The notes: generated by a model from the sequence alone, not told the origin. Positions 9,412-43,424 are shown, counted from the first letter of the stretch. The stretch is DNA of 55,185 bases from Parcubacteria group bacterium Greene1014_15 (GCA_007376725.1 VMGT01000001.1:1-55185); one strand, 5' to 3'. Program-made: numbers and translations.

Positions 9412-10362
9412 TTATACACTAGACGCAAGATACGCTGCCATTTTTTTGGCAATAAACACGTCAGTCGCAATACGCGACTCAACGGTCATGCCACCAATGT
9501 GGGGAAGCACGATCACATTCTCATGATTCTTCGCGTGCTCAACAAGGGGATAGCTGCTGAATGTTGTACCATCAAAGTCCAGTTCACCAGCCAACACATC
9601 TGTTCCATATCCTGCAATTTTCTTTTTCTGTATCGCCTCAAGGAGCGCGTCTTCGTTCACGATTTTACCGCGTGAAGTGTTGATCAAGTACGTGGATGGT
9701 TTCATTTTCTCAAGCGCTTTCGCATCAAACATATTCTCTGTGTCTTCTTTCAAGTGCACATGTATTGAAATTGCGTCGCTTGCTCGCAAAATTTCGTCGA
9801 AAGAAACTTTTTTATACAAAGAACTATCTACATTCGGGTCAACAAAGATCACGTTCATATTGAATGCTTTTCCATACTGCGCCATGAGTGATCCGAGGCG
9901 GCCAAGACCCACAATGCCGAGTGTCATGTAGGAGAGATTATGCCCGCGGAACAAATCGCGATCCCAGACCCCAGACTTCACAGAATCAAATGCCCAAGGA
10001 GATCGGCGCGCAAGATCAATGAGCATACCAAATGCAAGTTCCGCCGTACCGGTGATCGTCCTTAAAAATGCATCTTCTCCGCGAAGAGAAACAACTGCAA
10101 TTCCCTTCTCCTTCGCATACACAACATCAATGTGATCGAGGCCTGTCGTTGATGTTGCAATTACCTTTAAATTCTTCGCTCGGTCGAGAACGTCCTTGTG
10201 CAGATTCAAGCCGAGCTGCACAAAAATAATATCGAATTTTGAAATACACTCCAGAAGTTCATCCTGCGTTAACTGTTTATACTCGACACTCCCGAGCGTT
10301 TCAATGATCGCACGAGCTTTTGTCGGATATTCGGTAATCGTGTTGAGAATTTTATATGTCAT
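9412..10362 (-). CDS. D-isomer-specific 2-hydroxyacid dehydrogenase family, NAD-binding
   Basis: GIVGLGRLGSLMAQ (the GxGxxG motif), INTSRGKIVNEDAL and PHIGGMT are typical of this family. The ATG at 10362 (MTYKIL) is preferred; it overlaps the neuA stop by 11 nt. The track start at 10404 is possible. Confidence 0.85.
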   Translation of the reverse strand: MTYKILNTITEYPTKARAIIETLGSVEYKQLTQDELLECISKFDIIFVQLGLNLHKDVLDRAKNLKVIATSTTGLDHIDVVYAKEKGIAVVSLRGEDAFLRTITGTAELAFGMLIDLARRSPWAFDSVKSGVWDRDLFRGHNLSYMTLGIVGLGRLGSLMAQYGKAFNMNVIFVDPNVDSSLYKKVSFDEILRASDAISIHVHLKEDTENMFDAKALEKMKPSTYLINTSRGKIVNEDALLEAIQKKKIAGYGTDVLAGELDFDGTTFSSYPLVEHAKNHENVIVLPHIGGMTVESRIATDVFIAKKMAAYLASSV

Positions 10363-11080
10363 ATCCTTTTTTTCGTAACTCATGAAGCATATACTCCGCC
10401 ACAATCATATCAACAGGTTCGTCTATATCAATCGAGCGTTCCTTTGGTGTCTCGTGTCCAACAACATAATCACCGTAGAGACGATTTTTCTCCATAATAA
10501 CATCTCGACGCATCGCGTAGACGGCGCCGCTGCGCCGGTACGCAACGGGAAAATCCTGCCGACGAGTGCCCTCTTCTTCGGGAATAACATACGGAATGAT
10601 CCGATCTCCATCGAATTTTTTAATTTTTATAGGATGGTCACTCCCCACGCGAACAACGGTAACAGCGCTTTCCGCGCCGGAAGAAATGAGTTTTCGGAGC
10701 GTTTCGTCAATGTCTTCGGGAATCCGAAACGGGGAAGTCGGCTGAAGAATAACACAATAATCATACCGACAACCCTTTCTTTGTTCCATTTCTCTAAGTG
10801 CATGCTGCATCACCGGAAGATGCGGAACACGATCGCCGGCCAATTCAGGAGGACGCATGAACGGCACATGACCATTCCATTGCTTGGCGATATCCGCAAT
10901 TTCTTCGTCATCAGTAGAAATAATCAAATCAGTAATCAGGGCGCTTTTGTTGCCAACTTCAATAGAGTACGCAATGAGTGGCTTGCCTCCGATCTCCTTG
11001 ATATTTTTGCCAGGTATGCCCTTTGAGCCGCCACGAGCAGTTATAACACCTAAGATACTATATTTTTTGCTGTTTTCCAT
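10352..11080 (-). CDS. neuA: Acylneuraminate (nonulosonate) cytidylyltransferase, NeuA-type
   Basis: ILGVITARGGSKGIPGKNIK...GGKPLIAYSI...ISTDDEEI...LQPTSPFR is the classic CMP-NeuAc synthetase / CTP_transf_3 signature. Confidence 0.9.
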   Translation of the reverse strand: MENSKKYSILGVITARGGSKGIPGKNIKEIGGKPLIAYSIEVGNKSALITDLIISTDDEEIADIAKQWNGHVPFMRPPELAGDRVPHLPVMQHALREMEQRKGCRYDYCVILQPTSPFRIPEDIDETLRKLISSGAESAVTVVRVGSDHPIKIKKFDGDRIIPYVIPEEEGTRRQDFPVAYRRSGAVYAMRRDVIMEKNRLYGDYVVGHETPKERSIDIDEPVDMIVAEYMLHELRKKGYDI

Positions 11081-12276
11081 ATTTTTTCGGAAACCGCATG
11101 TTCCTCTTTTTCATAAAATATTTTTTGCGTGTAGAGCGATACCGTAGCAATTTTGTACGCAATATTCTTACTCGGTGATTCGCCAAGATACAACGACGAT
11201 GATTGATACTTGCCATGGAGAATCTGCTGACGAATCACGTTCTTGATCGCGCTACTGTCGTGCGGCACATCAACAACATTTGGACCTCGAAGACGCTGTT
11301 GTTGCCGCGTACCAATGTTCACGACAGGTACACCAAGAAACGAACATTCTTTTATACCCGCAGACGAATTTCCTACGAGAGCTTTCGCGTTGCGCAAAAG
11401 ACCGAACCATTCTTCCGGATGCAAATAACGCATAAAACGTATCTTGTGATTTTGCACTTGATCGTTAAAAATACGCAGCTGACGAGAAATCTGTTCTGAC
11501 CCAACGTCAAAATTTGGCCAAAACCACACTGTCTGCACACCGAGATCATGTACCGCGTCAAGTACTGTTTTTGTATGAGAAATACTATCATCAAATTCGC
11601 TCGCCACGGGGTGATAGAGAACAATAATATACTCTTGAGAAAGGTCGAGGGATGCACCGCTGCCCGTTACGGTAATATCAGGAGCATGCATGCCAAGTTT
11701 CGCGGGCACTTCAAGATCAGGGCTGCCGAAATTAAAAATATATTTAGGATTTTCTCCCATCTTTTGAAGCCTGTTCGCTGCATCATTATTTGTCGCAAAG
11801 TGTATATGCGAAAGTTTTGAGACCGCATGACGCACACTTTCGTCAATCGTGCCCGAGAGATCGCCTCCCTCAATATGCGCAATGGATATATTCATCAATG
11901 CCGCTGCAACCGCAGCTGACAGAACTTCGAAACGATCGCCGCGGATGACCACAACGTCAGGTTTGATCTGCTCCAACAAAGAAGAAAACTCTATAATACC
12001 GAGACCTGTTGTTTTTGTCTTTGTGGCATAATTGTCCCCCTCAAGATTGAAGTGCATTTCATGCAAATACTCAAAGCCTGCTTTCGCCAAACGCTCTTTG
12101 ATGCCAATACTTACCGATGTGTATTTAGCGGAAAGAGCTGTTCCGGCAAGAACCACATGAAGCTCGACATCGGAGCGTTTGCGCAATTCGTCAAGCACAA
12201 GAATATTGCGGCTGTAGTGTATAAAACTCGTAATGACAAAACACACGCTTCGTTTTTTGCTTGAAGACATATCCAT
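11050..12276 (-). CDS. neuC: UDP-N-acetylglucosamine 2-epimerase (hydrolysing), NeuC-type
   Basis: VVIRGDRFEVLSAAVAAALMNISIAHIEGGDLSGTIDESVRHAVSKLSHIHF and LVGNSSAGIKECSFLGVPVVNIG match NeuC. The start is taken at ATG 12276, 1 nt after the neuB stop. Confidence 0.88.
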   Translation of the reverse strand: MDMSSSKKRSVCFVITSFIHYSRNILVLDELRKRSDVELHVVLAGTALSAKYTSVSIGIKERLAKAGFEYLHEMHFNLEGDNYATKTKTTGLGIIEFSSLLEQIKPDVVVIRGDRFEVLSAAVAAALMNISIAHIEGGDLSGTIDESVRHAVSKLSHIHFATNNDAANRLQKMGENPKYIFNFGSPDLEVPAKLGMHAPDITVTGSGASLDLSQEYIIVLYHPVASEFDDSISHTKTVLDAVHDLGVQTVWFWPNFDVGSEQISRQLRIFNDQVQNHKIRFMRYLHPEEWFGLLRNAKALVGNSSAGIKECSFLGVPVVNIGTRQQQRLRGPNVVDVPHDSSAIKNVIRQQILHGKYQSSSLYLGESPSKNIAYKIATVSLYTQKIFYEKEEHAVSEKIWKTAKNIVS

Positions 12277-12277
12277 A

Positions 12278-13387
12278 TCATTCAAATACAGATTCTGCAA
12301 TTGGTTCATATTTGTGAAGTGTCCTGCGCAGTTTCTTTCCAATCACCATATCAAATTTATCTGCTGAAGTTCCTTCTATATACATCTTAGGACGCATGGC
12401 AAAGACAAGTTCTTTTGTAAGAACTGTGCCCGCAACGATATCTGCGCTAGCAACAAGCGCTTTGTTGAAATACGGACGAAAAATACTATTCGCTCCTTCG
12501 AGTTCTTTTGAACGATCACCAAAGTAGGGGGTCACATCAATTTCTTCAGCCTTACCTCCGCGTATGTCCTCTATCATGAGCCGCATTTCATCCGGTGTAA
12601 TCGAAGCTTTGTGGTCTGCGCCCCAAAGGTCGCGTGAAAAAGAAAAATGCTTTTCAATGATCCGTGCACCCAATTTAATTGCAGCAAGATCAACTTCATG
12701 TCCGTCAACCGAGTGATCAGAAAAACCAATCACCGTGTCGGGATATTTTTCACGCAAATGAGCAATGGTCGCCAAATTAAAAAGTTCTGGCGGGCAAGGA
12801 TACTGACTCACGCAATACAATACGGCGAGAGCAATACCCTTGCCCCGAATATGCGCGATCACTCCATCGAGCTCTTTGAGAGAAACCATGCCGCTTGAAA
12901 TAATAAGTGGCTTGCCGGTACTCGCAATAAAATCGAGTGTCACATGATCATGCACATCCCCGGAACCGATTTTCCAGAGAGGCACGCCAACCTCTTCAAG
13001 TTTCATTGCTGCCTTGCGACTCATCGGCGTCGAGAAGAAGACAATACCCCGATTATCGCAATGCTGTTTAATCTCTCTCCAAAACAAAAGCGGCGTTGCC
13101 TCCATATTCCTTTTGATCCAACTGTATCGATCACTACCCTTGAAATGAGGCGAGATTACGTCGACATTGATGAATTCATCTTCGAGTTCATGCGTCTGAA
13201 ATTTAACCGCGTCCGCACCGACACTCGTAGCTGCATCAACGAGATCTTTAGCATTTTGTAGATATTCTTCGACCGGGCGATCTTCTAGAGTCTGAATAAA
13301 ATTTTTCCCAATTTCAGCAATCACAAAAACATCATCTCCTCCGATGATTTTGTTTGCTCCTCTAATATATAGTGTTGGCTCTGCCAT
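12278..13387 (-). CDS. neuB: N-acetylneuraminate (nonulosonate) synthase with a C-terminal SAF domain, NeuB-type
   Basis: VFVIAEIGKNF...GADAVKFQTH...KIGSGDV...SDHS...ARIIEKHFS, plus a C-terminal SAF-like segment. Confidence 0.92.
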   Translation of the reverse strand: MAEPTLYIRGANKIIGGDDVFVIAEIGKNFIQTLEDRPVEEYLQNAKDLVDAATSVGADAVKFQTHELEDEFINVDVISPHFKGSDRYSWIKRNMEATPLLFWREIKQHCDNRGIVFFSTPMSRKAAMKLEEVGVPLWKIGSGDVHDHVTLDFIASTGKPLIISSGMVSLKELDGVIAHIRGKGIALAVLYCVSQYPCPPELFNLATIAHLREKYPDTVIGFSDHSVDGHEVDLAAIKLGARIIEKHFSFSRDLWGADHKASITPDEMRLMIEDIRGGKAEEIDVTPYFGDRSKELEGANSIFRPYFNKALVASADIVAGTVLTKELVFAMRPKMYIEGTSADKFDMVIGKKLRRTLHKYEPIAESVFE

Positions 13388-15601: not shown

Positions 15602-16367
15602 CCCGTTCGTTTTTGTTTTCTGTATAGGTTTTCATCATACCATCGGCAAAATTTTTGCGCATCTTTTTCACCGCATCATCGCAGAAATCTCTCCTGCGGA
15701 AAACCTTACCAAAAGACAGGTCTTGCACCATCGGTATACATGTTCCTTCATGATACGCAAGAAGAGCGTCTATATAGTTTTCGGTTCCGGCGATAATGGT
15801 CTTGCACCCGAGGCTGTGGCAAGTATCATTCACTGCCGAAGCGGGGCGTATTTGTGTCAATATTGCCCCCGCATCCACCGCAGGCGTTGCGAGATGAATT
15901 GTCGTTCCGACACATTCTGGAAGAGTATCGACCAGCGGCCAAAAATTTGTGCCGGAGCCGCGATAATAGGGGGAAAGTCCCAGATGCATATTCAATATTC
16001 GTTTTTCATAAAAAGAGAGAAGTGGATTTTTTATGATCGAGGTTCCAAATAGCACAATGTATTCCGGATTGCGTGTCTTGATCCACTCGAAAACCTCACG
16101 ACTGTTGGCGCCTTCCCGGGGCATTGTGTAGGTGTCATCAGGCGAAATAACTACGTCCGCGTGGTCGGCAAAATACGTTTCTTCTGCAGCATCACGATCG
16201 CACAGGTGTTCGTCCATAATCGTCTTTTCAGTCTCGATCTCGCTCCTTTTTTGCGCGTTCTCCTTCGCTTCACGAACAAGACCTACAACGGTAAATCGCT
16301 TGGCAAAAGAGTTCACAAGAAAATTATGCCGACGCGCATTGCTTGAAAGAATTGCTATTGTGGGCAT
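15573..16367 (-). CDS. Formyltransferase-family protein (probable sugar N-formyltransferase)
   Basis: ILNMHLGLSPYYRGSGTNFWPL and TTIHLATPAVDAGAIL match the Formyl_trans_N catalytic core (the N..H..D triad region). Confidence 0.78.
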   Translation of the reverse strand: MPTIAILSSNARRHNFLVNSFAKRFTVVGLVREAKENAQKRSEIETEKTIMDEHLCDRDAAEETYFADHADVVISPDDTYTMPREGANSREVFEWIKTRNPEYIVLFGTSIIKNPLLSFYEKRILNMHLGLSPYYRGSGTNFWPLVDTLPECVGTTIHLATPAVDAGAILTQIRPASAVNDTCHSLGCKTIIAGTENYIDALLAYHEGTCIPMVQDLSFGKVFRRRDFCDDAVKKMRKNFADGMMKTYTENKNERDAKYPIISM

Positions 16368-16391: not shown

Positions 16392-17759
16392 CTAAAGTTG
16401 TCCCAATAAAAACAAACCAATTCGTTCCCCCGATCGTCCATCAGTGAAGACGCACTGCGTTTCAACAAGTCTCATCCGTCCTGCGCGATCAAGTGAGGGG
16501 TCATCGAGATATCTTTTTACAGATGCGCAGAATTCCGACACCGACGACACCAATCGGATGCCACCTGTCGCAACAGCTTTTTTATAATGCTCCATTCCAT
16601 AGTACTGCATGGGCGATTCCCGGAGCATCACCTGTCCTGCGGTAAAACCGATATTGATGACCGGTGTATCAAAAAGCGCTGCGTCAATCGAGATGCTTGA
16701 TACATACGAAACGACAATATCCGCATGATAAAGCGTATCTGCGAGATGCCACACTTCCTTTTTATTCATATCCCAATCAACACTGCGGCTCTTTGTAAAA
16801 CGAACGCCAGGGTAGTCGTAACATAAGTGCGGACGAAGCTTAAGCGCCTTTTGATCAACAAAATCATTCGGCTGAAAGCGAACTAATATGTGCAGATTAT
16901 TACCGAAAGCGCCAGAGGCATTTAAGCCATAGAGCACGTCAATCATTGTCCATTCCAGATTGCTAAAGGCTTTGCCTACAGGAGCATACACCATAAGTTT
17001 TTTCCTCGGATCTGCATGAATATCTTTGAAAAAATCGTCTCTCGATTTTGGCGTATGAATATAGTATTCATCATATTGTGCAATACCCCCCACATAGATA
17101 CGCTCTGGGCTCGCATCGTGTAACTCAATCAGCTCCTGCTTAACAAGAGCATTGTAGACAACAAACCAATCTGGCAACAGACGCAGCATAGAGCGAGAAG
17201 TTGTCTGATCCCACGAATTAATAAGCCCAACACTTTTCACTCCGCGTCTTTTCGCTTCTCGAAGTATGTGTATTTCTTTGTCATCAAAAAGATGGGCAAG
17301 AAAAACAAGATCAGGCATATATGTATCAAAATATTTTGCGTACGTATGTTCTCGTACGAAAAGAAAATCAACGCGCCGAACAAACTTGCGTACGAGTGAA
17401 CGAGCCAAGAACGCATTGGTTATTTTTGCTATCCAGTGCACAAGAAGATTTCTGCCTGAATCCCGCAACATGAAACGTAAAAGATCCGTCGTATCGGTTT
17501 TAAGTAACATAAATTTTAACTTGCCGAAAAACGCATCTATATTTGGCGTATGTTGGGTGCGCACTACTTCGTAGATTAAGCGATCGTTTTGAAACTCTTT
17601 CTTATAATAATCCACACGTTCTTGACTATTGCAAAGAAGAACAATCCGAACACACACATCTTTAAGAAGTGTTTCAAGTATGGAGGTACGCAAAATATTT
17701 TTTGCTTCGACTCCCTGAAATATTGCAATTAAAATCGTTTTTTGCTGTTTGTTTTTCAT
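16392..17759 (-). CDS. Uncharacterised GT-B/TagF-like family protein, paralog 1 of 5
   Basis: 455 aa. It shares LINSWDQTTSRSMLRL, GGIAQYDEY, LVRFQPND, ADIVVSYVSSISIDAALFDTPVINIGF and the C-terminal DGRSGERI with the four other copies. Confidence 0.8.
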   Translation of the reverse strand: MKNKQQKTILIAIFQGVEAKNILRTSILETLLKDVCVRIVLLCNSQERVDYYKKEFQNDRLIYEVVRTQHTPNIDAFFGKLKFMLLKTDTTDLLRFMLRDSGRNLLVHWIAKITNAFLARSLVRKFVRRVDFLFVREHTYAKYFDTYMPDLVFLAHLFDDKEIHILREAKRRGVKSVGLINSWDQTTSRSMLRLLPDWFVVYNALVKQELIELHDASPERIYVGGIAQYDEYYIHTPKSRDDFFKDIHADPRKKLMVYAPVGKAFSNLEWTMIDVLYGLNASGAFGNNLHILVRFQPNDFVDQKALKLRPHLCYDYPGVRFTKSRSVDWDMNKKEVWHLADTLYHADIVVSYVSSISIDAALFDTPVINIGFTAGQVMLRESPMQYYGMEHYKKAVATGGIRLVSSVSEFCASVKRYLDDPSLDRAGRMRLVETQCVFTDGRSGERIGLFLLGQL

Positions 17760-19090
17760 TCTCCAGTATGTGCACGTAAAAAATCTACGAGCACTGCGGC
17801 AAGATTCTGACTTGCCTGTCCCAATAATCCTCCTGTTTGCTCATCAATAATTTTTTTCCTGCCTTCTGCATGCAGGGCAGGATTTACACGATATGCCGCA
17901 AGAGCTTCGCCAAGTTCGTCAGCGCTTTTTACATACCACACACCCTTGCTTGCTAGGATACTCTTAAAATGGTCGTAATCGTAGTAACGCGCAATGCTCT
18001 CCTTGTATAAACGCTTATGCGTACCGTCAAAACCAACGAGAATAACAGGTGTATTAAACAGCGCGGCATCAACACACATCGTTGAAGGACCTGTTACAAC
18101 GATATCAGCGCAGCAAAGCAGGTTTTGCAAATGCATGTCGTCTGCTCTCGAAAGTTCAACAAACTTCCGGCGGGCAAAACGCTGCTTGTCCACCTGTTCA
18201 AAAAAAATACCGTCATGCGCAGAATCCGTGGAAAGACACTGCACAGTATCTGCAACCGGCAATCGCACGATAATGCATTCATCTTTCGAGCGCAGTGATG
18301 CGAGTATGTCAAGGAGCTCGCAGTCCACGGTATTATTCTTAATATAACGGTCACCGGTTGCAATATACAACAGGATTCTTTTTGACAAAGCGGACACATC
18401 GGGCATAAGCTTCTCGTGATCGCAGGTCTTCTGCTCACAATAGGCATCATAGTGTGGAACGCCCACAACTTTTAGTTTGTTGCGCGCTATGCCATGGTAA
18501 GCAATTGCATCAGATTCCGTAAGTTTATTTTGAACAAGGAGCACGTCCGGCACAAGGCGCAAAAGTCCCTTGATCGTCAAATTATCCCACGAACGCACCA
18601 TGCCAATCAAGGGCACTTTTCTCCTTCGTGCTTCATGCATGAGTCGAACATCAATTTCATTTTGCACATCTGTAGAACATACAACATTCGGGGCATATTT
18701 CTTGAATAAGCCATCGAATAAGCCACGAGGTGTCAAAAACAAACTAAGAAACCGTACGAACCAACGGCCAAAATGCGATTGCAGCAGAACAGAAAAATAC
18801 GCGCCTCTCCCATTCATATCCGACATGCGCTTGATTGCTACAGATCGAGTTGCGAGCGCCGCAAGAGAAAGATTCCGCATCCAGATATCACGAGCCGAAA
18901 GAGCAACATCGATACCTTCTACAATAATGCGATCGCCGCCATATTCCTTCTGCATATATACTTCGCTTCTCCTCGGACAAAGAATTACAATTCGCACGTC
19001 CGCTGAAGAAACAAGCCGTTTCGGCACCGATGTCGCAAATATATTTCTCGATATAAGAGGGTGAAAACTTGATATGAATATGGTCTTCAT
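17756..19090 (-). CDS. Uncharacterised GT-B/TagF-like family protein, paralog 2 of 5
   Basis: 444 aa. MKTIFISSFH, MVRSWDNLTIKGLLRL, VGVPHYDAY, IVRLPVAD, ADIVVTGPSTMCVDAALFNTPVILVGF. It has ATGA overlaps with both neighbouring genes. Confidence 0.8.
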   Translation of the reverse strand: MKTIFISSFHPLISRNIFATSVPKRLVSSADVRIVILCPRRSEVYMQKEYGGDRIIVEGIDVALSARDIWMRNLSLAALATRSVAIKRMSDMNGRGAYFSVLLQSHFGRWFVRFLSLFLTPRGLFDGLFKKYAPNVVCSTDVQNEIDVRLMHEARRRKVPLIGMVRSWDNLTIKGLLRLVPDVLLVQNKLTESDAIAYHGIARNKLKVVGVPHYDAYCEQKTCDHEKLMPDVSALSKRILLYIATGDRYIKNNTVDCELLDILASLRSKDECIIVRLPVADTVQCLSTDSAHDGIFFEQVDKQRFARRKFVELSRADDMHLQNLLCCADIVVTGPSTMCVDAALFNTPVILVGFDGTHKRLYKESIARYYDYDHFKSILASKGVWYVKSADELGEALAAYRVNPALHAEGRKKIIDEQTGGLLGQASQNLAAVLVDFLRAHTGE

Positions 19091-20097
19091 GCAGTTGCTT
19101 TTTCTCGTGAAGCATGCATGCCCGTATCGAGAAAAGGTTTATCTTCCCAATTATACACCCACACTCCATCTACTCCCGGACTTGCAAAACGACCTCGATA
19201 ATAGTCACGGTTCAGGAGTTCTGTCGATGTCATTTTTCGCTGTGGCGTACCGAGCAAACTTTGCCATGCGGGTATCTCTTTTTCAACAAGTGTTTTTTGC
19301 TGTTCTTTTGATAGAATTCTAAAATCATTCAATTCTTTAAGAAGCGCAGGTGTGATCGAAACAGGCCCATCTTTTGTTTGATCTTTTTCAAGAATTGTAA
19401 AATGGCGTTCCACAAAATCGGCACCGAGCATAATCGCAACTTTTGCCGCCTTAATGCCATCACGCTCGACATGTGTATGATCCGACCATCCAACTTTATT
19501 TGTAAATGCACGAAGCCATTTCATTCGCGAAAGATTTGCGCTATCAAGCGCATTTGGATAACTCGTCACACAGTGCAAAAAAGAAAACTCTTTACCGAGA
19601 CTCGTTAGCAATTTTGCCGCTTGGCGAATTTCCTCATCATGCGTTGCTCCCGTAGAAACGATAAGGTGCTCGAAATGATCTGCGAGTTCACGCAACATCG
19701 GAAGACTCGCGCAATCATAGCTTGCCACCTTAACAGTCCGTTCCGGCCAAGGCAAACCAGCTATAATCGGAATCGTATGGCGGGAAAAAATTGTCGTTAG
19801 AGGCACGACACCAAACTCCTGACATTTCTCAATGAAAAAAAGGTGATCATCCAAAGAAAGATCGAGCTTTGACAAACGCGCTTTCTCGGCGTTATATGGA
19901 CGCTTAATCGCCTGTACTGTCCCATCAGCAAAAGTGACTCCCTCTTCGAAACGATCCCGCTTTGTTACATCGCTCGAAAATATTGACTGCATTTTCACGT
20001 AGTCCGCGCCACTATCCGCTGCGGCCTTAATCATGCGCCCAAAGAGTTCGCGATCGCCGTTGTGATTCTGGCATAGCTCGACAATAAGTTTTGTCAT
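19087..20097 (-). CDS. NeuB-family (sialic-acid-synthase-like / SpsE-like) aldolase-type synthase, second copy
   Basis: LIVELCQNHNGDRELFGRMIKAAADSGADYVKMQ...VKVASYDC...WSDHT...GADFVERHFT. It is divergent from the 12278-13387 copy and has an atypical C-terminus. Confidence 0.8.
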   Translation of the reverse strand: MTKLIVELCQNHNGDRELFGRMIKAAADSGADYVKMQSIFSSDVTKRDRFEEGVTFADGTVQAIKRPYNAEKARLSKLDLSLDDHLFFIEKCQEFGVVPLTTIFSRHTIPIIAGLPWPERTVKVASYDCASLPMLRELADHFEHLIVSTGATHDEEIRQAAKLLTSLGKEFSFLHCVTSYPNALDSANLSRMKWLRAFTNKVGWSDHTHVERDGIKAAKVAIMLGADFVERHFTILEKDQTKDGPVSITPALLKELNDFRILSKEQQKTLVEKEIPAWQSLLGTPQRKMTSTELLNRDYYRGRFASPGVDGVWVYNWEDKPFLDTGMHASREKATA

Positions 20098-20107
20098 ACA
20101 AAAAAAA

Positions 20108-21286
20108 TTAGTTAATCGATAAAAAATCTTTCACAAATATCTCCGCGCACACTTGATTTCCATCAAGTGTTCCCCATCGTTTTAGTATTTTCTCACGCAT
20201 CTCTGCATACTTCTTTCGCACCACATCTCCTTTTGCAAGTATCTCCGCAAGCGGTTGCCCGCGATACACCGTTCCGAAACCAAGCTCCTCAACCATTTTG
20301 TTATTGAAATAAATTTCAGGATCATCCAGCGGATCAAAGTCAGGCACCAGAATCGGTGTTCCGCAAAGCATGGACAGCCACACCGACCCCCACCCTGAAC
20401 GCGCAAAGTGAAGGACAATATTTTTGTTCAGTCCGTGATTCGGTGAAAATCGCTGAACACTCCCCGGCACGCTGTCTAAATCATTCGCATAGAGCCGTAG
20501 TCCAAAATCCCGCGCCTCCCTGTATAACCTTTCTAACCCCGGAATTCCTGTGACGGTTACAAATATCCCCGGTTCTATTTCTTCGTTATTCTGAATCATA
20601 CGCGCATCGCGAATCGGTGGCACAAGAATTTCCGAAGGATATTTGGGAAGATATGATTCTCTTCCGGAAAAAGTGCCGGGAAACGCAACAGCATGCACAC
20701 GCTGTTCTTTTTCAATAGAATGAGCAACCTCGATTCCTCGTTCAAGCACTGCAGGTTCTACATTCACCTTTGTTCTTCCAGCCTCGAGTGCGCCGCGAAG
20801 AATGTCTTCGATATATCCAAACGTTGTAAAGTATGACGGCGCCACGCCAAAGCGAATTCTTGGCGAGCGATTGATCTCAACGACAATGTTTTTACCTTCG
20901 ATTGAAACATGCTCGCCAGAAAGCGTCTGGGCATCGATTATCCCCGAAAGGTGCTCGCGCGCTTGTTTCGAAACTTCTTGTGCGGTACGCACCCACACAG
21001 CAAGAGCAACTGTATATGTATTGTCCCCATAAAAAACACTTCGCAAAATACCGCCAAGTTTTTCATCAAGAAGCAATTCACCTGGATATTTTTTTTCGTG
21101 TTCGCCAAATTCCTCGAGCATAATACACCTCTGCTTTTCTCCATACACCCATGGGATAAGACAAACGAGTCGTGGGCGGCCTTCCCGTTCAAGAACGTCG
21201 TTGAATGCAAGTGCGAGCTCGGTCGTACGCAGAAAAGGACCAATGCCATACGCAAAATTTGTCACGAGCAGTTGCTGTGATGTCAT
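20108..21286 (-). CDS. Hypothetical GT-B glycosyltransferase-like protein (GT1/GT28-type C-terminal motif)
   Basis: 392 aa. The C-terminal HFARSGWGSVWLSMLCGTPILVPDFDP..DPEIYFNNKMVEELGFG resembles the GT1/GT28 nucleotide-sugar-binding motif (H.G.G...E....G.P....P...DQ..N). I do not recognise the N-terminal half. Confidence 0.45.
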   Translation of the reverse strand: MTSQQLLVTNFAYGIGPFLRTTELALAFNDVLEREGRPRLVCLIPWVYGEKQRCIMLEEFGEHEKKYPGELLLDEKLGGILRSVFYGDNTYTVALAVWVRTAQEVSKQAREHLSGIIDAQTLSGEHVSIEGKNIVVEINRSPRIRFGVAPSYFTTFGYIEDILRGALEAGRTKVNVEPAVLERGIEVAHSIEKEQRVHAVAFPGTFSGRESYLPKYPSEILVPPIRDARMIQNNEEIEPGIFVTVTGIPGLERLYREARDFGLRLYANDLDSVPGSVQRFSPNHGLNKNIVLHFARSGWGSVWLSMLCGTPILVPDFDPLDDPEIYFNNKMVEELGFGTVYRGQPLAEILAKGDVVRKKYAEMREKILKRWGTLDGNQVCAEIFVKDFLSIN

Positions 21287-21295
21287 AGGATAGTA

Positions 21296-23050
21296 TCAGA
21301 GCCTTCGATATGAGATTCCTTTCGTCTTGAGAACCTCCTCTTTATTATACAACGCCCACGTGTCAAAAAGAGCAGCGCCGATATGCGCTTTTGTCATGAG
21401 CGAGCGCACAGAAAGTTCTTCAAGTGCCGGATGGTTATTCATGACGAGGACAGCATCCGCATTTTGAAAACCGTCTTCAACTTTCCGCACAACCTTCACG
21501 CCAAGTTGCTCAATTTCTTCCTTCGAAACAACGGGGTCATACCCATGTATATTTGCATATCCCCGTTCAACCAAATACTTTGCGAGCGCGACCGTCGTCG
21601 AGCCGCGCAGATCAGACGTTGGCGGATTTCCCTTGAACGCAAAGCCAAGAATAAAAATTTTGGATTTCTGTTTCGATGTGAGATAATCAAGATGCTTGAT
21701 CACATCTTCCGCGAGATTTGTAAGAATCGTTTCATTTACTCGCCGCGCATATTCAAAAAGTTTCGGTTCATATCCGACAACCCGCGCTCCATATGCAAAA
21801 ATAAGCGGATCCTTCACGAGACAATAACCGCCAACTCCTGGAGAAGGCTTGGGTACATTACTGCGAGCGTATCCCATGTTGGCTGCCTCGATTACTTTAT
21901 TCGTATCAATATTCCACTTCTGGCATACCATAGAGACTTCGTTCGCAAAAGCAAACGTCACGTCCCGATACGTGTTGTTGATAAGTTTCACCGCCTCCGC
22001 TTCTTCTGTCGAATCAACGACCGCAAGAGATTTTGTCATCATACTGAAAATGCTTGCCGCAAGGTTGCTACTCGCCTGATTGATACCGCCGATCACCTGC
22101 GGCAGGGTCCGCAACTCCGCAAGCGCCTTTCCTTCAATCGTTCTCTCTGGAGCAAAGACCGCAAAGAAACCTTCTCCACCGCGAAGCCCCGACGCAGCTT
22201 CAAGAATTGGAACAATTATATTTCTCGTCGTTCCGAGTGGCACAGTCGAACGCAGAATCACAATATCACCACGCTTAAGAACTTTGCCAATATTGCGTGC
22301 GGCATCTTTAAGATACGTCATATCGGGGACATTGTCTTCGCCAATCGGCGTTCCAACAGCAATGAAATATACATCGCATCTGTTGTTCAATTCAAAATTT
22401 TCGCTCACAACAAATTTTTTACCAACGTGATCCTGAAGCAACACATCAATCCCTTCTTCATAAAAAGGAGTTTTTTTCTGCTTGATACTATCGCGCGTCC
22501 TCTCGTTCACATCGACACCAACAACTTTAAATCCAAGGTCAGCAAGTGTCAGAGCGAGTGTTAAACCCACATACCCAAGTCCGGCGACACCGATCCTCTT
22601 GAAACGTACGTCGCTTCCCTGCCAGAGATCATAAAAAGAAAGAACATCGGTCACACGTTTTGCTTCGTCCACCATAATGATCTTATCGTAACGATGCTCG
22701 TGCACACCGCGATTCCTAATTTCCTCATTCACAAGAGAAAAAATGCCGGCATTGTCCATCGGACCAACAATTACAAAAGCATCTTTATTCATAATATCCG
22801 CAAGCGGCGCTGTGATGCGCGCGCCTTTCGCAAGAGCTCGGCGAATATCACCATCTGTCACTAGGCCGAGGAGCTTACCACTCGTCTCTGTCACGAGCGC
22901 AATTCCCGCCGGAATATTTGTCTCCTTTGGATTATTCTTCGTCATAGCACGCAAAGCATCTTTGACTAATGCCGTTCGCCGCAAACTAATATCGCGGATA
23001 TTTTTTTCTTTTTTTGAAAGCAATGCAACGTTTTGTACAATTGTTGCCAT
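21296..23050 (-). CDS. CBS-pair domain fused to a UDP-glucose/GDP-mannose-dehydrogenase-family nucleotide-sugar dehydrogenase
   Basis: The N-terminal ~150 aa has CBS-like repeats (GIALVTETSGKLLGLVTDGDIRRAL...IIMVDEAKRVTDVLSFYDL). This is followed by IGVAGLGYVGLTLAL, FIAVGTP, the catalytic-Cys region GVGGYCLVKDP and GFAFKGNPPTSDLRGS. Confidence 0.88.
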   Translation of the reverse strand: MATIVQNVALLSKKEKNIRDISLRRTALVKDALRAMTKNNPKETNIPAGIALVTETSGKLLGLVTDGDIRRALAKGARITAPLADIMNKDAFVIVGPMDNAGIFSLVNEEIRNRGVHEHRYDKIIMVDEAKRVTDVLSFYDLWQGSDVRFKRIGVAGLGYVGLTLALTLADLGFKVVGVDVNERTRDSIKQKKTPFYEEGIDVLLQDHVGKKFVVSENFELNNRCDVYFIAVGTPIGEDNVPDMTYLKDAARNIGKVLKRGDIVILRSTVPLGTTRNIIVPILEAASGLRGGEGFFAVFAPERTIEGKALAELRTLPQVIGGINQASSNLAASIFSMMTKSLAVVDSTEEAEAVKLINNTYRDVTFAFANEVSMVCQKWNIDTNKVIEAANMGYARSNVPKPSPGVGGYCLVKDPLIFAYGARVVGYEPKLFEYARRVNETILTNLAEDVIKHLDYLTSKQKSKIFILGFAFKGNPPTSDLRGSTTVALAKYLVERGYANIHGYDPVVSKEEIEQLGVKVVRKVEDGFQNADAVLVMNNHPALEELSVRSLMTKAHIGAALFDTWALYNKEEVLKTKGISYRRL

Positions 23051-23051
23051 A

Positions 23052-23843
23052 TTATTTTTTATTAAGCCTCATGTTCTTTAAAACCGCCTCAGCCGTCCAA
23101 AAATCAATAATACTATTCATATCAACCGATTTTTCAGAAGGCATTACATACGGCAACACATGGTCGCCAAACACACGTCCGTGTTCCATGATAACTTCGC
23201 GCCTGGAAGCGTAGAGTCCACCGTTACGCCAATACACAGGCGGGAGATCCTGACGTCGCACTGTTGAGCGTTCTTCAAGACCTTCGACATACTGAACTAA
23301 CCTGCCATCGGTAATTTTTTTCAATTTGATTGGATGATATTCATTAACCTGACACACACTCACAATGGACTGCGCATTAGATTGCAAAAGCATTCTAAGC
23401 GCCCTATCTATATCTTCGCTTGATACAAAGGGTGTCGTAACATGTAGTTGCACGACATAATCAAACATGCACTTCTCGATTTTCTCGACTGCTTTTACCG
23501 CATGTTGCAACATCGGCACATCGGGCGTTTTGTCCAGCGCGAGCTTTTTCGGACGCCGGAGTAATACCTCATTGCCACCATATTTCTTCGCGATGCGCAG
23601 GATTTCATCATCTTCAGACGAAACAACAACACGGTCAAGCAATACGCTCCCGAGAGCTGCAGTAAGCATATAATACAGCAATGGCTTTCCTCCCAAAAGT
23701 TTGATGTTTTTGCGGGGAACACTTTTTGAACCGCCGCGTGCAGGAATAACACCAAGAATGAGAGGCTTCTTTGCCTCCTCTCCTCCTGTTTTCTTGTGAG
23801 ATGTTATTTTTGTTATTTTTGTATTCGTATAGTGCATACACAC
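23052..23843 (-). CDS. Acylneuraminate cytidylyltransferase-family protein, second copy
   Basis: ILGVIPARGGSKSVPRKNIKLLGGKPLLYYML...VSSEDDEI...LHVTTPF. The N-terminal ~25 residues are of uncertain reality. Confidence 0.87.
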   Translation of the reverse strand: MCMHYTNTKITKITSHKKTGGEEAKKPLILGVIPARGGSKSVPRKNIKLLGGKPLLYYMLTAALGSVLLDRVVVSSEDDEILRIAKKYGGNEVLLRRPKKLALDKTPDVPMLQHAVKAVEKIEKCMFDYVVQLHVTTPFVSSEDIDRALRMLLQSNAQSIVSVCQVNEYHPIKLKKITDGRLVQYVEGLEERSTVRRQDLPPVYWRNGGLYASRREVIMEHGRVFGDHVLPYVMPSEKSVDMNSIIDFWTAEAVLKNMRLNKK

Positions 23844-23987
23844 CTGTAGCGGACTTCTGTGCTTCTGTTAAAACATGCTCACTATACCATAACCTTGTAT
23901 AACTCATAAAAGATACGTTGTAATTCCTCAAATTTTGACTTCTCTGTCAGAGAACGGTATGATTGGCACACTTTTTGCCCAGCCGGT

Positions 23988-25079
23988 ATGAAACATTTTA
24001 CCAACACTATAGAATGTCTTGGAAACGGAGCTCCGCACACCAAAGAGGCCGCGGCATTCGATGCTTTTTTTAAAAAAATGGGCAATAACCCAAATCTGCA
24101 TTTTGTACGAGTATTCATTACATTTGATCTTTCCCATAAAACTGAGAAGTTACAAGACAATATATATTTCATGATGTCTCAATACCAAGAATTGTTGTCT
24201 GATGAGGTGCGCCTTGCAATGTCTCTAGCTCGTTCCTTGGGTCAATATCAAAAAAAGCTGCACATCGATACAGCAAATCCAGAAGCCGATGATCGACTAT
24301 ATACCCAAGCACACTATGGAACTCTCTTTAAAAATTTGAATGCGTACGCGCATTATGATGAAGCGTATGCATTACTCAACACACGACTGACCAGAAACAA
24401 CATTAAACTGGAAACAAAAGGAAAGATTGCCTTAGATGTAGGTTGTGGCGGAGGCAGATATACACTTGCTTTGAAAAAACTGGGCTTTGAAAAGGTATAT
24501 GGGGTTGATTATAGTTCCATGAATATTGATACTGCTGGGCTTCGCGCAAAAAAAATCAGAAATGTTTTTTTTAAAAAGGCCGACGCACATGCGCTTCCGT
24601 TCAAAAACAATATGTTTGATTTTGTTTTTTGCAATGGTGTGCTTCATCATTCTCACTCGATTAGAGACGGAGTAAAGGAAATAGTGCGAGTCATGAAACC
24701 AAATGGATATGGATGGCTCTATCTTATCAATAAACCCGGGGGGATTCATTGGGACACCGTTGAATTGTTGAGACGCGTCATGCGGCCAGTACAACCAGAA
24801 TATGCAAGAAATACACTGCGACTGCTCGGGGTCCCAGAAAACAGAATTTTTTTTATTCTTGACCATATTATGGTTCCGATAAATATATTGAGCTCAAGCA
24901 ATGAAATCGAAAGAATGATTAAGGAAAACAACATCACTGATTTCAAAAGATTGGAAAGGGGCGCTGACACCGATATGATCGAGAAATTATGGAAGCTCAA
25001 AAAAACCGGCAACGATGACAAGGAAATGATTTGGAAATATGGTTCAGGAGAACACCGATATTATTTTCGCAAAAGCTAA
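23988..25079 (+). CDS. Class I SAM-dependent methyltransferase (Methyltransf_11/25-like)
   Basis: IALDVGCGGGRYTLALKKLGFEKVYGVDYS...FDFVFCNGVLHHS...MKPNGYGWL. An alternative start at ATG 24171 (MMSQYQELL) is possible. Confidence 0.8.
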   Translation: MKHFTNTIECLGNGAPHTKEAAAFDAFFKKMGNNPNLHFVRVFITFDLSHKTEKLQDNIYFMMSQYQELLSDEVRLAMSLARSLGQYQKKLHIDTANPEADDRLYTQAHYGTLFKNLNAYAHYDEAYALLNTRLTRNNIKLETKGKIALDVGCGGGRYTLALKKLGFEKVYGVDYSSMNIDTAGLRAKKIRNVFFKKADAHALPFKNNMFDFVFCNGVLHHSHSIRDGVKEIVRVMKPNGYGWLYLINKPGGIHWDTVELLRRVMRPVQPEYARNTLRLLGVPENRIFFILDHIMVPINILSSSNEIERMIKENNITDFKRLERGADTDMIEKLWKLKKTGNDDKEMIWKYGSGEHRYYFRKS

Positions 25080-43386: not shown

Positions 43387-43424
43387 ACTACTCAATCCTA
43401 CCACAACAACCGAAAACAACGTAT

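What the first reader, a model, noticed from the sequence alone, without database searches (positions are those of the whole stretch)
19087..23843. Second ulosonic-acid-type module: NeuB-like synthase, orphan GT-B, CBS-fused sugar dehydrogenase and a second cytidylyltransferase
A second, divergent NeuB-family synthase (19087-20097) and a second NeuA-family cytidylyltransferase (23052-23843) bracket two genes: a CBS-fused nucleotide-sugar dehydrogenase (21296-23050) and a 392-aa protein whose only recognisable feature is a GT1/GT28-like C-terminal motif (20108-21286). Two synthase plus cytidylyltransferase pairs in one locus imply two chemically distinct CMP-activated keto-sugars. The second NeuB-like protein has an unusual C-terminal region (TSTELLNRDYYRGRFASPGVDGVWVYNWEDKPFLD). 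There is no accompanying 2-epimerase, so its aldose substrate is not obvious from the window.
Basis: partly seen in the sequence, partly recalled or inferred. Interest (0 to 1): 0.65.

Follow-up and report, generated by a model that had tools for sequence, protein, structure and literature searches.

The report
Conserved uronate-to-CMP-keto-sugar gene cassette
Four adjacent genes in a groundwater ultra-small bacterium form a widely conserved but uncharacterised pathway that probably makes a second, unknown CMP-activated acidic sugar for the cell surface, using a new enzyme family in place of the usual sugar-releasing step.

Summary
All four ORFs exist as described, on the minus strand. They are a cytidylyltransferase, a CBS-fused nucleotide-sugar 6-dehydrogenase, a 392-aa protein with no family hit, and a SAF-less NeuB. 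The block is not a recent duplicate: NeuB2 and NeuB1 share 30% identity. NeuB2 is not a pseudoenzyme, because every NeuB catalytic residue checked is kept.

The 392-aa protein is predicted with confidence to have a GT-B fold and a MurG-like donor motif. It belongs to a small isolated family of 260 representatives among 1.84 billion.

In 36 species-level loci with a close relative of the 392-aa protein:
- 34 have a cytidylyltransferase, 29 the CBS-dehydrogenase and 28 a NeuB2-type synthase within 6 kb.
- A minimal, translationally coupled DH–GT-B–NeuB2–cytidylyltransferase operon occurs outside the Patescibacteria.
- One protein fuses the GT-B protein to the CBS-dehydrogenase.
- Two different dehydrogenase subfamilies occupy the same slot.

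Best reading (about 0.5): UDP-sugar → UDP-uronate → free uronate, released by the GT-B protein acting like PseG or NeuC → PEP condensation → CMP activation. The product would be a dicarboxylic nonulosonic-type sugar. The chemistry is inferred, not shown.

The parts
23052..23843 (-). CMPT2: CMP-ulosonic acid synthetase (cytidylyltransferase) and first gene of the block. The real start is probably the ATG at 23837.
   Evidence: Pfam CTP_transf_3 4.4e-23; TIGR03584 PseF 142.7 bits, below the 205.7 cut-off. The closest solved structure is V. cholerae CMP-Neu5Ac synthetase 6ifd, 7e-28. It is 45% identical to the other cytidylyltransferase at 10352-11080. CMPT2-type orthologues (>=300 bits) directly follow NeuB2 in non-Patescibacteria cassettes L078, L079 and L081.
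21296..23050 (-). CBS-fused nucleotide-sugar 6-dehydrogenase. The CBS region covers about residues 1-145 and the dehydrogenase residues 152-569.
   Evidence: Pfam CBS plus UDPG_MGDP_dh_N, central and C domains; TIGR03026 373 bits, above the 189.8 cut-off. The best equivalogs are UDP-ManNAc dehydrogenases, but below their cut-offs. The closest structure is P. horikoshii UDP-ManNAc DH 4r16, 1e-55. The catalytic Cys lies in GVGGYCLVKDP. A relative is present within 6 kb of the GT-B protein's relative in 29 of 36 loci.
20108..21286 (-). 392-aa GT-B protein, the founding member here of an unannotated family. Proposed role: UDP-uronate hydrolase that supplies the free aldose, as a functional analogue of PseG or NeuC.
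   Evidence: No Pfam or NCBIfam hit. AF2 model pLDDT 92.7. Foldseek places it in the GT-B fold nearest GT1 (CalG3, OleD, UGTs), E about 1e-9, TM 0.55-0.6. Weak Glyco_tran_28_C hits appear in 10 of 37 relatives. The MurG-like motif aligns by hhalign. There are 68 invariant columns across 37 homologues. The family has only 260 members at E<=1e-3 among 1.84e9 representatives, and one of them (P0264) is fused to a CBS-dehydrogenase.
19087..20097 (-). NeuB2: a SAF-less NeuB-family PEP:aldose condensing synthase.
   Evidence: Pfam NeuB 1.6e-46 with no SAF domain; below the NeuB and PseI equivalog cut-offs. Catalytic residues are conserved against NmNeuB: E7, K35, Q37, T102, K123, S126, S148, Y180, S205, H207, E230, H232, D243. 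AF2 pLDDT 91.6; the best folds are the Leptospira short NeuB 6ncs and SpsE 1vli. A NeuB2-type gene lies directly next to the GT-B gene on the same strand in 22 of 36 loci.
19138..19227 (-). NeuB2 C-terminal signature (residues 291-320): ELLNRDYYRGRFAS...YNWE, a remnant of the first SAF strand followed by a new hairpin.
   Evidence: E293, N296, R297, Y299, Y300, R301, G302, R303, F304, A305, N316 and W317 are invariant in 25 homologues. The stretch aligns to the start of the SpsE SAF domain. It lacks the KRPG/Arg314 segment of NmNeuB.
19858..19983 (-). Family-specific insert after strand beta2 of NeuB2 (residues 39-80), carrying the motif I64-K65-R66-P67, in which R66 and P67 are invariant and I64 and K65 nearly so.
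   Evidence: D43, R47, F50, E51, G53, G59, R66, P67, E71 and R74 are invariant. The KRP motif resembles the SAF-domain KRPG motif that carries the essential Arg314 in NmNeuB. That it replaces Arg314 in cis is inference only.
23844..23987 (.). Divergent intergenic region upstream of CMPT2 and of the plus-strand methyltransferase at 23988-25079. It is the likely promoter region of the long minus-strand operon.
   Evidence: This is the only sizeable gap. Downstream genes abut or overlap by 1-10 bp gaps or a 4 bp overlap. Promoter-like matches occur here but are not evidence of function.
9412..10404 (-). D-2-hydroxyacid dehydrogenase, a probable accessory or tailoring enzyme of the cassette that sits 9 kb away in this window.
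   Evidence: Pfam 2-Hacid_dh and 2-Hacid_dh_C; PGDH- and glyoxylate-reductase-like, below cut-offs. In other genomes it lies inside the cassette (CBS-DH, CMPT, HacidDH, GT-B, NeuB2) or right after NeuB2. It is within 6 kb in 17 of 36 loci.
10352..13387 (-). Module 1, shown for contrast: NeuB1 with SAF (12278-13387), NeuC-type hydrolysing 2-epimerase (11050-12342) and cytidylyltransferase 1 (10352-11080).
   Evidence: NeuB plus SAF. Epimerase_2 passes the TIGR03568 NeuC cut-off, 329.8 against 235.9. CTP_transf_3.
16392..19090 (-). Two TagB/F-like (Glyphos_transf / BFO_1060-like) GT-B proteins immediately downstream of NeuB2. They are candidate transferases for the CMP-activated sugars.
   Evidence: Pfam Glyphos_transf 5e-5 and 6e-4; NCBIfam BFO_1060_trans 3e-12. 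Relatives lie within 6 kb of the cassette in 14 of 36 loci.

Best explanation
The four genes are a self-contained pathway from a common UDP-sugar to a second CMP-activated ulosonic acid.

1. The dehydrogenase oxidises C6 of a UDP-hexose or UDP-HexNAc to the UDP-uronic acid. Its CBS pair is probably an allosteric sensor at this first committed step.
2. The 392-aa GT-B protein binds the UDP-uronate through its MurG-like donor motif and releases the free uronic acid, with or without 2-epimerisation. This is the job NeuC does in sialic acid synthesis and PseG does in pseudaminic acid synthesis.
3. NeuB2 condenses the aldehyde with PEP. Its truncated SAF domain, arginine-rich C-terminal motif and KRP insert rebuild the sugar pocket for an anionic substrate.
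4. CMPT2 activates the product with CTP. TagB/F-like transferases then add it to the envelope glycan.

The product would be a 3-deoxy-non-2-ulosaric (9-carboxy) acid. A 2-hydroxyacid dehydrogenase and, in some genomes, an AsnB-type amidotransferase could tailor its second carboxyl end.

Shown: gene identities, intact active sites, the fold, conserved synteny, and the fusion. Inferred: the order of steps, hydrolase activity of the GT-B protein, the substrate and the product.
For: - Cassette conservation: in 36 GTDB species loci with a close relative of the GT-B protein and at least 4 kb of flank, 34 have a cytidylyltransferase, 29 the CBS-dehydrogenase and 28 a NeuB2-type synthase within 6 kb. 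NeuB2 is directly adjacent on the same strand in 22.
- Searching from the NeuB2 side finds the same neighbours.
- A minimal operon DH-GT-B-NeuB2-CMPT with overlapping stops and starts occurs in L081. It needs no further enzyme to get from a UDP-sugar to a CMP-sugar.
- Natural fusion: P0264 (985 aa) joins the GT-B protein to the CBS domain and dehydrogenase.
- Two different dehydrogenase subfamilies fill the slot next to the GT-B protein: WecC-like with CBS in Patescibacteria, and AglM/TuaD-like without CBS in L079 and L081. The oxidation step itself therefore appears to be required.
- Epimerase_2 genes are present near only 8 of 36 cassettes, so another enzyme must supply the aldose.
- The GT-B protein has the same fold class as NeuC and PseG. 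Its only Pfam signal is Glyco_tran_28_C, the family that includes MurG and, from my own knowledge, PseG.
- The GT-B family is acidic (median pI 5.7), which fits a soluble enzyme.
- NeuB2 catalytic residues are intact.
- NeuB2 has invariant extra arginines: R47, R66, R74, R297, R301, R303.
- The CBS region resembles that of the KpsF/GutQ sugar-phosphate isomerases.
Against: - No activity has been tested.
- The GT-B protein gives no match to Pfam Epimerase_2 (the NeuC fold family) or to any NCBIfam family even at a permissive threshold, and so to no PseG model if that library holds one.
- Its best structural matches are true transferases of family GT1.
- Its N-terminal (acceptor-side) domain is very highly conserved, which could mean a defined acceptor rather than water.
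- It lacks the catalytic His of GT1 and PseG (Tyr13 instead) and the ribose-binding Glu (Leu304).
- Some loci have the GT-B protein and the dehydrogenase but no NeuB within 10 kb (L007, L025, L052). Others pair the GT-B protein with a NeuB1-type synthase (L019, L023, L048), and 7 of 36 lack the dehydrogenase nearby.
- No nonulosaric acid is reported in the searched literature.
Confidence: 0.5

Rival explanations
1. The GT-B protein is a genuine glycosyltransferase. It uses the dehydrogenase's UDP-uronic acid as donor and adds a uronic acid residue to the growing, lipid-linked or protein-linked glycan. NeuB2 and CMPT2 make an ulosonic acid from an aldose supplied by central metabolism, for example a sugar phosphate. 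The genes travel together only because both sugars belong to one conserved glycan unit.
For: - The best Foldseek hits are GT1 transferases.
- The donor motif is MurG-like.
- The N-domain is strongly conserved, suggesting a defined acceptor.
- A fusion with the donor-making dehydrogenase also fits this reading.
- The GT-B protein and dehydrogenase occur without NeuB in L007 and L052.
- The conserved arginines of NeuB2 could bind a phosphate.
Against: - It leaves NeuB2 with no dedicated aldose supply and, for a phosphorylated substrate, no conserved phosphatase in the cassette.
- The GT-B protein lacks the catalytic His and the ribose-binding Glu of GT1/GT28 transferases.
- The family is acidic, unlike membrane-associated MurG-type enzymes (with my own knowledge of MurG).
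- Immediate translational coupling with NeuB2 in distant phyla is tighter than expected for two independent sugars.
Confidence: 0.25
2. The end product is the same but the order differs. The GT-B protein hydrolyses an unoxidised UDP-sugar such as UDP-GlcNAc. NeuB2 and CMPT2 then make a conventional CMP-nonulosonate, and the dehydrogenase oxidises its terminal C9 alcohol at the nucleotide-sugar stage.
For: - Nucleotide-sugar dehydrogenases act only on nucleotide-linked sugars, and a CMP-nonulosonate has a primary alcohol at C9 (established knowledge).
- Cassettes that lack a nearby dehydrogenase would still make a CMP-sugar (7 of 36 loci).
- Gene order does not fix the reaction order.
Against: - Two unrelated dehydrogenase subfamilies would each have had to switch from UDP-hexose to CMP-nonulosonate substrates.
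- The UDP-binding domain is canonical.
- The anionic-substrate features of NeuB2 would be left unexplained.
Confidence: 0.1
3. The GT-B protein is the transferase for the CMP-activated product, a sialyltransferase analogue, and the dehydrogenase serves another sugar.
For: - Several bacterial sialyltransferase families are GT-B (established knowledge).
- Its adjacency to NeuB2 and the cytidylyltransferase is strong.
- The loss of the ribose-binding Glu could reflect a different nucleotide.
Against: - The locus already holds five TagB/F-like candidate transferases.
- The GT-B protein is fused to the dehydrogenase, not to a synthase or cytidylyltransferase.
- The donor motif aligns with the UDP-GlcNAc enzyme MurG.
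- About 55% identity across phyla is unusual for a transferase with lineage-specific acceptors.
Confidence: 0.08
4. Module 2 is a redundant or decaying copy of module 1, with no distinct product.
For: Both modules carry a NeuB-family and a CTP_transf_3 gene.
Against: - The two NeuB proteins share only 30% identity.
- Active-site residues are intact.
- About 65% identity and invariant signature motifs are maintained across hundreds of genomes.
- Module 2 often occurs alone.
Confidence: 0.02

Closest known systems
NeuC-NeuB-NeuA sialic acid pathway (N. meningitidis SiaA/SiaC/SiaB, E. coli K1)
   Same: The logic is the same. A GT-B-fold enzyme frees an aldose from a UDP-sugar, a NeuB-family TIM-barrel synthase condenses it with PEP, and a CTP_transf_3 enzyme makes the CMP-sugar. 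NeuB2 keeps the metal-binding, PEP-binding and catalytic residues of NeuB.
   Different: There is an extra nucleotide-sugar 6-dehydrogenase step. The GT-B enzyme is not an Epimerase_2 member. NeuB2 lacks the SAF domain and its essential Arg314. All equivalog cut-offs are failed.
PseG, the UDP-sugar hydrolase of the pseudaminic acid pathway (GT-B, MurG-like)
   Same: It is a GT-B-fold protein with a GT28-type C-terminal nucleotide-sugar motif, encoded next to the synthase and proposed to use water as acceptor (PseG properties from established knowledge).
   Different: No sequence match to any annotated NCBIfam or Pfam family. It is about 120 residues longer, with a large conserved insertion in the N-domain. 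Tyr13 stands where GT1 and PseG have the catalytic His. Hydrolase activity is untested.
UDP-HexNAc 6-dehydrogenases (WecC, Cap5O, P. horikoshii 4r16) and UDP-glucose dehydrogenases
   Same: Full three-domain architecture, a catalytic Cys, and a pass of the TIGR03026 cut-off.
   Different: It is fused to an N-terminal CBS pair, fails every equivalog cut-off, and sits in a CMP-ulosonic acid cassette rather than with WecB or a uronic acid transferase.
SAF-less or atypical NeuB homologues: Leptospira borgpetersenii 6ncs (290 aa) and B. subtilis SpsE 1vli
   Same: These are the best sequence and fold matches. 6ncs also lacks the SAF domain.
   Different: Identity is only 24-25%. The NeuB2 family has its own invariant insert (IKRP) and C-terminal ELLNRDYYRGRFAS...YNWE motif.
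MurG (GT28)
   Same: hhalign aligns residues 295-341 of the GT-B protein with MurG 259-304: RSG...G.P..VP...D...Y(F/W)N. Both have the GT-B fold.
   Different: The match is not statistically significant (E 0.089). The G-loop His and the ribose-binding Glu are absent, and the protein is acidic with no sign of membrane association.

Membership tests
NeuB family (PF03102) PEP-condensing synthases | TIM-barrel NeuB domain above the Pfam gathering score | tested here: met
   159.2 bits against a cut-off of 22.1. Foldseek top hits are NeuB, PseI and SpsE structures.
NeuB family (PF03102) PEP-condensing synthases | Metal-binding His pair and the PEP-binding and catalytic residues (NmNeuB E25, K53, Q55, T110, K129, S132, S154, Y186, S213, H215, E234, H236, D247) | tested here: met
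   All are conserved in the phmmer alignment to 1xuu. Most are invariant in 25 family members.
N-acetylneuraminate synthase / pseudaminate synthase equivalogs (TIGR03569, TIGR03586) | Score above the curated equivalog cut-off | tested here: not met
   146.3 against 399.65, and 123.3 against 340.25.
N-acetylneuraminate synthase / pseudaminate synthase equivalogs (TIGR03569, TIGR03586) | C-terminal SAF (antifreeze-like) domain carrying the essential Arg (NmNeuB R314 in KRPG) | tested here: not met
   No SAF hit. The sequence ends after the first SAF strand, and the KRPG segment is absent.
CMP-nonulosonate / CMP-Kdo synthetases (CTP_transf_3, PF02348) | Pfam domain above the gathering score; homology to solved CMP-Neu5Ac synthetases | tested here: met
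   82.7 bits against 22.6. 6ifd 7e-28 and 1eyr 7e-20.
PseF equivalog (TIGR03584) | Score above the curated cut-off | tested here: not met
   142.7 against 205.7.
Nucleotide-sugar 6-dehydrogenases (TIGR03026) | Subfamily cut-off, three domains and a catalytic Cys | tested here: met
   373 bits against 189.8. All three Pfam domains are present. The Cys lies in GVGGYCLVKDP, aligned to GVGGHCLPKDP of 4r16.
UDP-ManNAc dehydrogenase WecC equivalog (NF008286) | Score above the curated cut-off | tested here: not met
   232.1 against 459. The substrate is therefore undetermined.
GT-B glycosyltransferase superfamily (GT1/GT28-like) | Two Rossmann-like domains with a C-terminal nucleotide-sugar binding motif | tested here: met
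   AF2 pLDDT 92.7. Foldseek gives GT1 structures at E about 1e-9 and TM 0.55-0.6. The motif aligns to MurG.
GT28 / Glyco_tran_28_C (PF04101; MurG, PseG) | Pfam score above the gathering threshold | tested here: not met
   The window protein gives no hit. Ten of 37 relatives give weak hits (best E 0.0055). One distant relative, P0353, reaches 27.1 bits against 22.
GT1/GT28 inverting transferases and PseG | Catalytic His in the loop after strand beta1, and a ribose-binding Glu after the RSG/HCGWNS motif | tested here: not met
   The loop reads NFAYGxGP with invariant Tyr13. The Glu position (MurG E269) is Leu304. Residue roles are taken from established knowledge of MurG, UGTs and PseG.
NeuC / UDP-GlcNAc 2-epimerase (Epimerase_2, PF02350) | Sequence membership | tested here: not met
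   No Pfam hit. hhalign against the window's own NeuC gives probability 0.1%.
UDP-sugar hydrolase activity (functional class of PseG/NeuC) | Release of UDP and a free reducing sugar | not testable with these tools
   Needs an enzyme assay. It is inferred only from pathway logic and synteny.

The most novel reading that the evidence does not exclude
The cassette makes a CMP-activated 3-deoxy-non-2-ulosaric acid, a nine-carbon keto-sugar with carboxyl groups at both ends. This sugar class has not been reported in nature. It would be made by a new UDP-uronate hydrolase family and a SAF-less NeuB. It would be a widespread envelope component of the ultra-small, host-dependent Patescibacteria and some DPANN archaea, and so a candidate determinant of their attachment to hosts.
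Probability: 0.3. Interest if true: 0.85.

Novelty: new variant of a known kind. Interest (0 to 1): 0.68.

Why it matters
Patescibacteria (CPR) and DPANN archaea are a large part of microbial diversity, live attached to other cells, and have almost no characterised surface chemistry. This cassette is one of the most conserved parts of their glycan loci, with about 55-65% identity across classes. It contains an enzyme family with no annotation at all.

If the proposed pathway is right, three things follow:
- It adds a new acidic sugar, and a new route to it, to the nonulosonic acid family.
- It defines a new GT-B hydrolase family and shows how NeuB can work without its SAF domain.
- It gives a concrete, mass-spectrometry-testable marker for the envelope of uncultured episymbionts.

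Even if the exact product is wrong, the four-gene unit is a clean, expressible target for discovering a new CMP-sugar.

Tried and rejected
- Pfam, NCBIfam and PDB sequence searches of the 392-aa protein gave nothing usable.
- Scanning 37 relatives at a permissive threshold gave only weak Glyco_tran_28_C signals.
- hhalign of the family profile against the window's own NeuC found nothing. Against E. coli MurG it gave only a motif-level, non-significant match.
- An exhaustive profile search of 1.84 billion representatives did not bridge to any large glycosyltransferase family. It gave 260 hits.
- A distant subgroup of the family (23-28% identity, L066-L072) lies among unrelated genes (D-Ala-D-Ala carboxypeptidase, AI-2E transporter, exonuclease, NAD synthase). 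It gave no functional clue.
- Literature searches for nonulosonic acids in CPR, for NeuB in Parcubacteria, and for 'nonulosaric' or 'ulosaric' acids found nothing relevant. The only hits concerned the plant and algal heptulosaric acid Dha.
- The SugarBase preprint reports new higher-carbon CMP-ulosonic acids in Magnetospirillum, but nothing I could tie to this cassette.
- The T. forsythia nonulosonic acid paper gave no role for a 2-hydroxyacid dehydrogenase.
- Cluster look-ups gave no names or accession numbers for the closest relatives.
- I first thought the NeuB2 'YRGRF' arginine was the equivalent of NmNeuB Arg314. I rejected this after one search showed that Arg314 lies later, in the KRPG motif.
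- I could not inspect model coordinates, so I made no pocket or distance analysis.

Full report
**Observation.** The window is a 55-kb glycan-biosynthesis locus found in groundwater metagenomes. Nearly all genes are on the minus strand.
- 23052-23843: a CTP_transf_3 cytidylyltransferase.
- 21296-23050: a CBS domain fused to a complete nucleotide-sugar 6-dehydrogenase (TIGR03026, 373 bits).
- 20108-21286: a 392-aa protein with no Pfam or NCBIfam hit.
- 19087-20097: a NeuB-family protein whose Pfam match stops at residue 257 and which has no SAF domain.

The genes abut each other, with a 1-10 bp gap or a 4-bp overlap. They follow the only sizeable intergenic gap (23844-23987), so they head a long operon. 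That operon continues through two TagB/F-like transferases, a formyltransferase-like gene, a deacetylase, a methyltransferase, NeuB1, NeuC, a second cytidylyltransferase, a 2-hydroxyacid dehydrogenase and a Wzy_C-TPR protein. The cytidylyltransferase probably starts at the ATG at 23837 rather than the GTG at 23843.

**Is module 2 a duplicate or a dead copy?** It is neither. NeuB2 and NeuB1 share 30% identity over 166 residues. The two cytidylyltransferases share 45%. I mapped NeuB2 onto N. meningitidis NeuB through the phmmer alignment. Every residue known (from the NmNeuB literature) to bind the metal or PEP, or to act in catalysis, has its counterpart: E7, K35, Q37, T102, K123, S126, S148, Y180, S205, H207, E230, H232 and D243. 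NeuB2 belongs to a tight subfamily, with about 65% identity among 25 sampled members. In that subfamily the 'unusual' C-terminus is an invariant signature, E-L-L-N-R-D-Y-Y-R-G-R-F-A-S...Y-N-W-E. The signature aligns with the first strand of the SAF domain of SpsE. It stops before the KRPG segment that carries the essential Arg314 of NmNeuB. The subfamily also has its own conserved insert after strand beta2, containing an I-K-R-P motif. The AF2 model is confident (pLDDT 91.6) and is closest to the short Leptospira NeuB 6ncs and to SpsE.

**The 392-aa protein.** With 37 homologues the AF2 model reaches pLDDT 92.7. Foldseek places it in the GT-B fold, nearest GT1 enzymes (CalG3, OleD, plant UGTs) at E about 1e-9, TM 0.55-0.6 and 10-15% identity.

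At sequence level the only signals are weak. Glyco_tran_28_C hits appear in 10 of 37 relatives. A motif-level hhalign match puts residues 295-341 against MurG 259-304. The loop after strand beta1 reads NFAYGxGP, where GT1 and PseG carry their catalytic His. The ribose-binding Glu of MurG and UGTs is a Leu here (residue roles from established knowledge).

An exhaustive profile search of 1.84 billion representative proteins finds only 260 relatives, so this is a small, isolated family. Its members are annotated 'hypothetical' wherever a name exists. The family is acidic, with a median pI of 5.7.

**Co-occurrence.** A scan of one genome per GTDB species found 72 loci. Most are Patescibacteria. 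Woesearchaeota and other DPANN archaea also appear, as do single MAGs of Bdellovibrio, Acidobacteriota and Elusimicrobia. I searched the window's proteins against six-frame ORFs of these loci. Among the 36 loci with a close relative of the 392-aa protein and at least 4 kb of flank on each side:
- 34 have a cytidylyltransferase, 29 the CBS-dehydrogenase, 28 a NeuB2-type synthase and 17 the 2-hydroxyacid dehydrogenase within 6 kb.
- Only 8 have an Epimerase_2 gene.
- NeuB2 is directly adjacent on the same strand in 22.
- 33 have some NeuB within 10 kb.

Starting instead from NeuB2 homologues recovers the same neighbours. The full two-module order seen here also recurs: CBS-DH, CMPT, HacidDH, GT-B protein, NeuB2, NeuB1, NeuC, CMPT, Wzy-TPR in L017, L021, L026 and L028.

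Three further observations matter.
1. L081 carries a minimal operon of dehydrogenase, GT-B protein, NeuB2 and cytidylyltransferase, with overlapping stops and starts.
2. One protein, P0264 (985 aa), is a natural fusion of the GT-B protein with the CBS-dehydrogenase.
3. In the Methylomirabilis locus and in L081, the dehydrogenase next to the GT-B protein belongs to a different subfamily. It is AglM/TuaD-like and has no CBS domain, whereas the Patescibacteria enzyme is WecC-like. The GT-B protein, NeuB2 and the cytidylyltransferase remain orthologous. A 6-dehydrogenase has therefore been recruited twice, which argues that the oxidation is an integral step.

**Most likely mechanism.** The cassette reads as a complete route from a UDP-sugar to a CMP-sugar.
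1. The dehydrogenase makes a UDP-uronic acid.
2. The GT-B protein releases the free uronic acid from UDP. NeuC (GT-B, Epimerase_2) and PseG (GT-B, GT28-like) play this role in the known pathways.
3. NeuB2 condenses it with PEP.
4. The cytidylyltransferase activates the product.

This accounts for all four conserved genes, the fusion, the absence of an epimerase or phosphatase, and the extra invariant arginines of NeuB2, which suggest an anionic substrate. It also explains why a regulatory CBS pair, similar to that of KpsF/GutQ, sits on the first enzyme. The product would be a nine-carbon 2-keto-3-deoxy acid with a second carboxyl at C9. Its C8-C9 end is a 2-hydroxyacid. That would give the frequently associated D-2-hydroxyacid dehydrogenase a substrate. 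The same holds for the AsnB-type amidotransferase next to the cassette in the Bdellovibrio and Methylomirabilis loci. All of this chemistry is inference, and I put it at about 0.5.

**Rivals.**
- The GT-B protein may be a real transferase that uses the UDP-uronate as donor. This fits its GT1-like fold and strongly conserved N-domain, but leaves NeuB2 without a substrate supply. About 0.25.
- The dehydrogenase may act last, on the CMP-sugar. The product is the same. About 0.1.
- The GT-B protein may be the transferase for the CMP-sugar. About 0.08.

Three exceptions keep the main model from being secure. Three loci have the GT-B protein and dehydrogenase but no NeuB nearby. A few loci pair the GT-B protein with a NeuB1-type synthase. 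Seven of 36 lack the dehydrogenase nearby.

**Comparison with what is known.** The cassette works like the NeuC-NeuB-NeuA and PseG-PseI-PseF modules. It is not a member of their equivalog families. NeuB2, the cytidylyltransferase and the dehydrogenase all fail the curated equivalog cut-offs. NeuB2 lacks the SAF domain. The GT-B protein belongs to no annotated family. I found no literature on this cassette, on nonulosonic acids in Patescibacteria, or on nonulosaric acids. I therefore class it as a new variant of a known kind of pathway, containing one new enzyme family.

**Verdict.** Interest is 0.68. The finding is a conserved, expressible four-gene unit in poorly understood organisms, with a specific prediction that mass spectrometry can test.

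Noticed in passing
window 14528-16367 (-): A polysaccharide deacetylase (14528-15601) and a formyltransferase-like gene (15573-16367) sit between the two synthase modules. The SugarBase preprint describes the same pairing inside a legionaminic-acid-type cluster of Ca. Kuenenia stuttgartiensis and links it to free-amine or N-formyl nonulosonic acids.
   Followed up: partly
window 16392-17759, 17756-19090, 25101-26453, 33723-35114, 49640-50962 (all -): Five paralogous TagB/F-like (Glyphos_transf) proteins are present. Three of them (16392-17759, 25101-26453 and 33723-35114) also match the BFO_1060 family weakly, and 17756-19090 only marginally (E 0.005). No TagD-type CDP-glycerol synthase was seen in the ORFs I scanned. 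They may transfer CMP-activated sugars rather than glycerol phosphate.
   Followed up: no
window 42673-49431 (-): This stretch holds two DegT-type aminotransferases, two SDR epimerase/dehydratases, a nucleotidyltransferase and a 600-aa protein with no Pfam hit. They could supply a 2,4-diamino sugar to NeuC/NeuB1. Module 1 may therefore make a legionaminic-type acid rather than Neu5Ac. NeuB1 itself fails the NeuB equivalog cut-off.
   Followed up: no
window 38994-40626 and 42673-43419 (-): A SIS isomerase, a GHMP kinase and a nucleotidyltransferase resemble a nucleotide-activated heptose pathway. The same trio, plus a HAD phosphatase, is seen in related locus L005.
   Followed up: no
window 4180-5010 (-): A transposase/integrase gene (rve core with HTH_21) lies just beyond the Wzy_C-TPR end of the glycan locus, next to MurB.
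   Followed up: no
window 21383-22564 (+): A 393-aa open frame lies antisense to the dehydrogenase gene. It is probably a shadow ORF of the strongly skewed coding strand and was not examined further.
   Followed up: no
window 19858-19983 (-), NeuB2 residues 64-67: The I-K-R-P motif in the barrel insert (R66 and P67 invariant, I64 and K65 nearly so) resembles the V-K-R-P-G motif of the missing SAF domain, which carries the essential Arg314 in NmNeuB. The arginine may have been relocated in cis.
   Followed up: partly
P0264 (985 aa) and P0366 (790 aa): P0264 fuses the GT-B protein to the CBS-dehydrogenase. P0366 carries an unrelated 385-aa N-terminal region with no Pfam hit in front of a domain of the same GT-B family.
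   Followed up: partly
L003 4890-6530 and L004 3714-5435: In two related loci the dehydrogenase slot holds a 546-573 aa protein. It combines a partial UDPG_MGDP_dh domain with a class I methyltransferase domain.
   Followed up: no
L066-L072: A distant branch of the GT-B family (23-28% identity) sits among unrelated housekeeping genes, so the family has at least one other function. Several of these MAGs are labelled Gammaproteobacteria.
   Followed up: partly
window 8213-9139, 28705-30090, 44419-46221 (-): Three sizeable ORFs (308, 461 and 600 aa) inside the glycan locus have no Pfam hit. The first two also have no NCBIfam hit. A weak relative of the 308-aa protein occupies the same position before Wzy-TPR in L080.
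   Followed up: no
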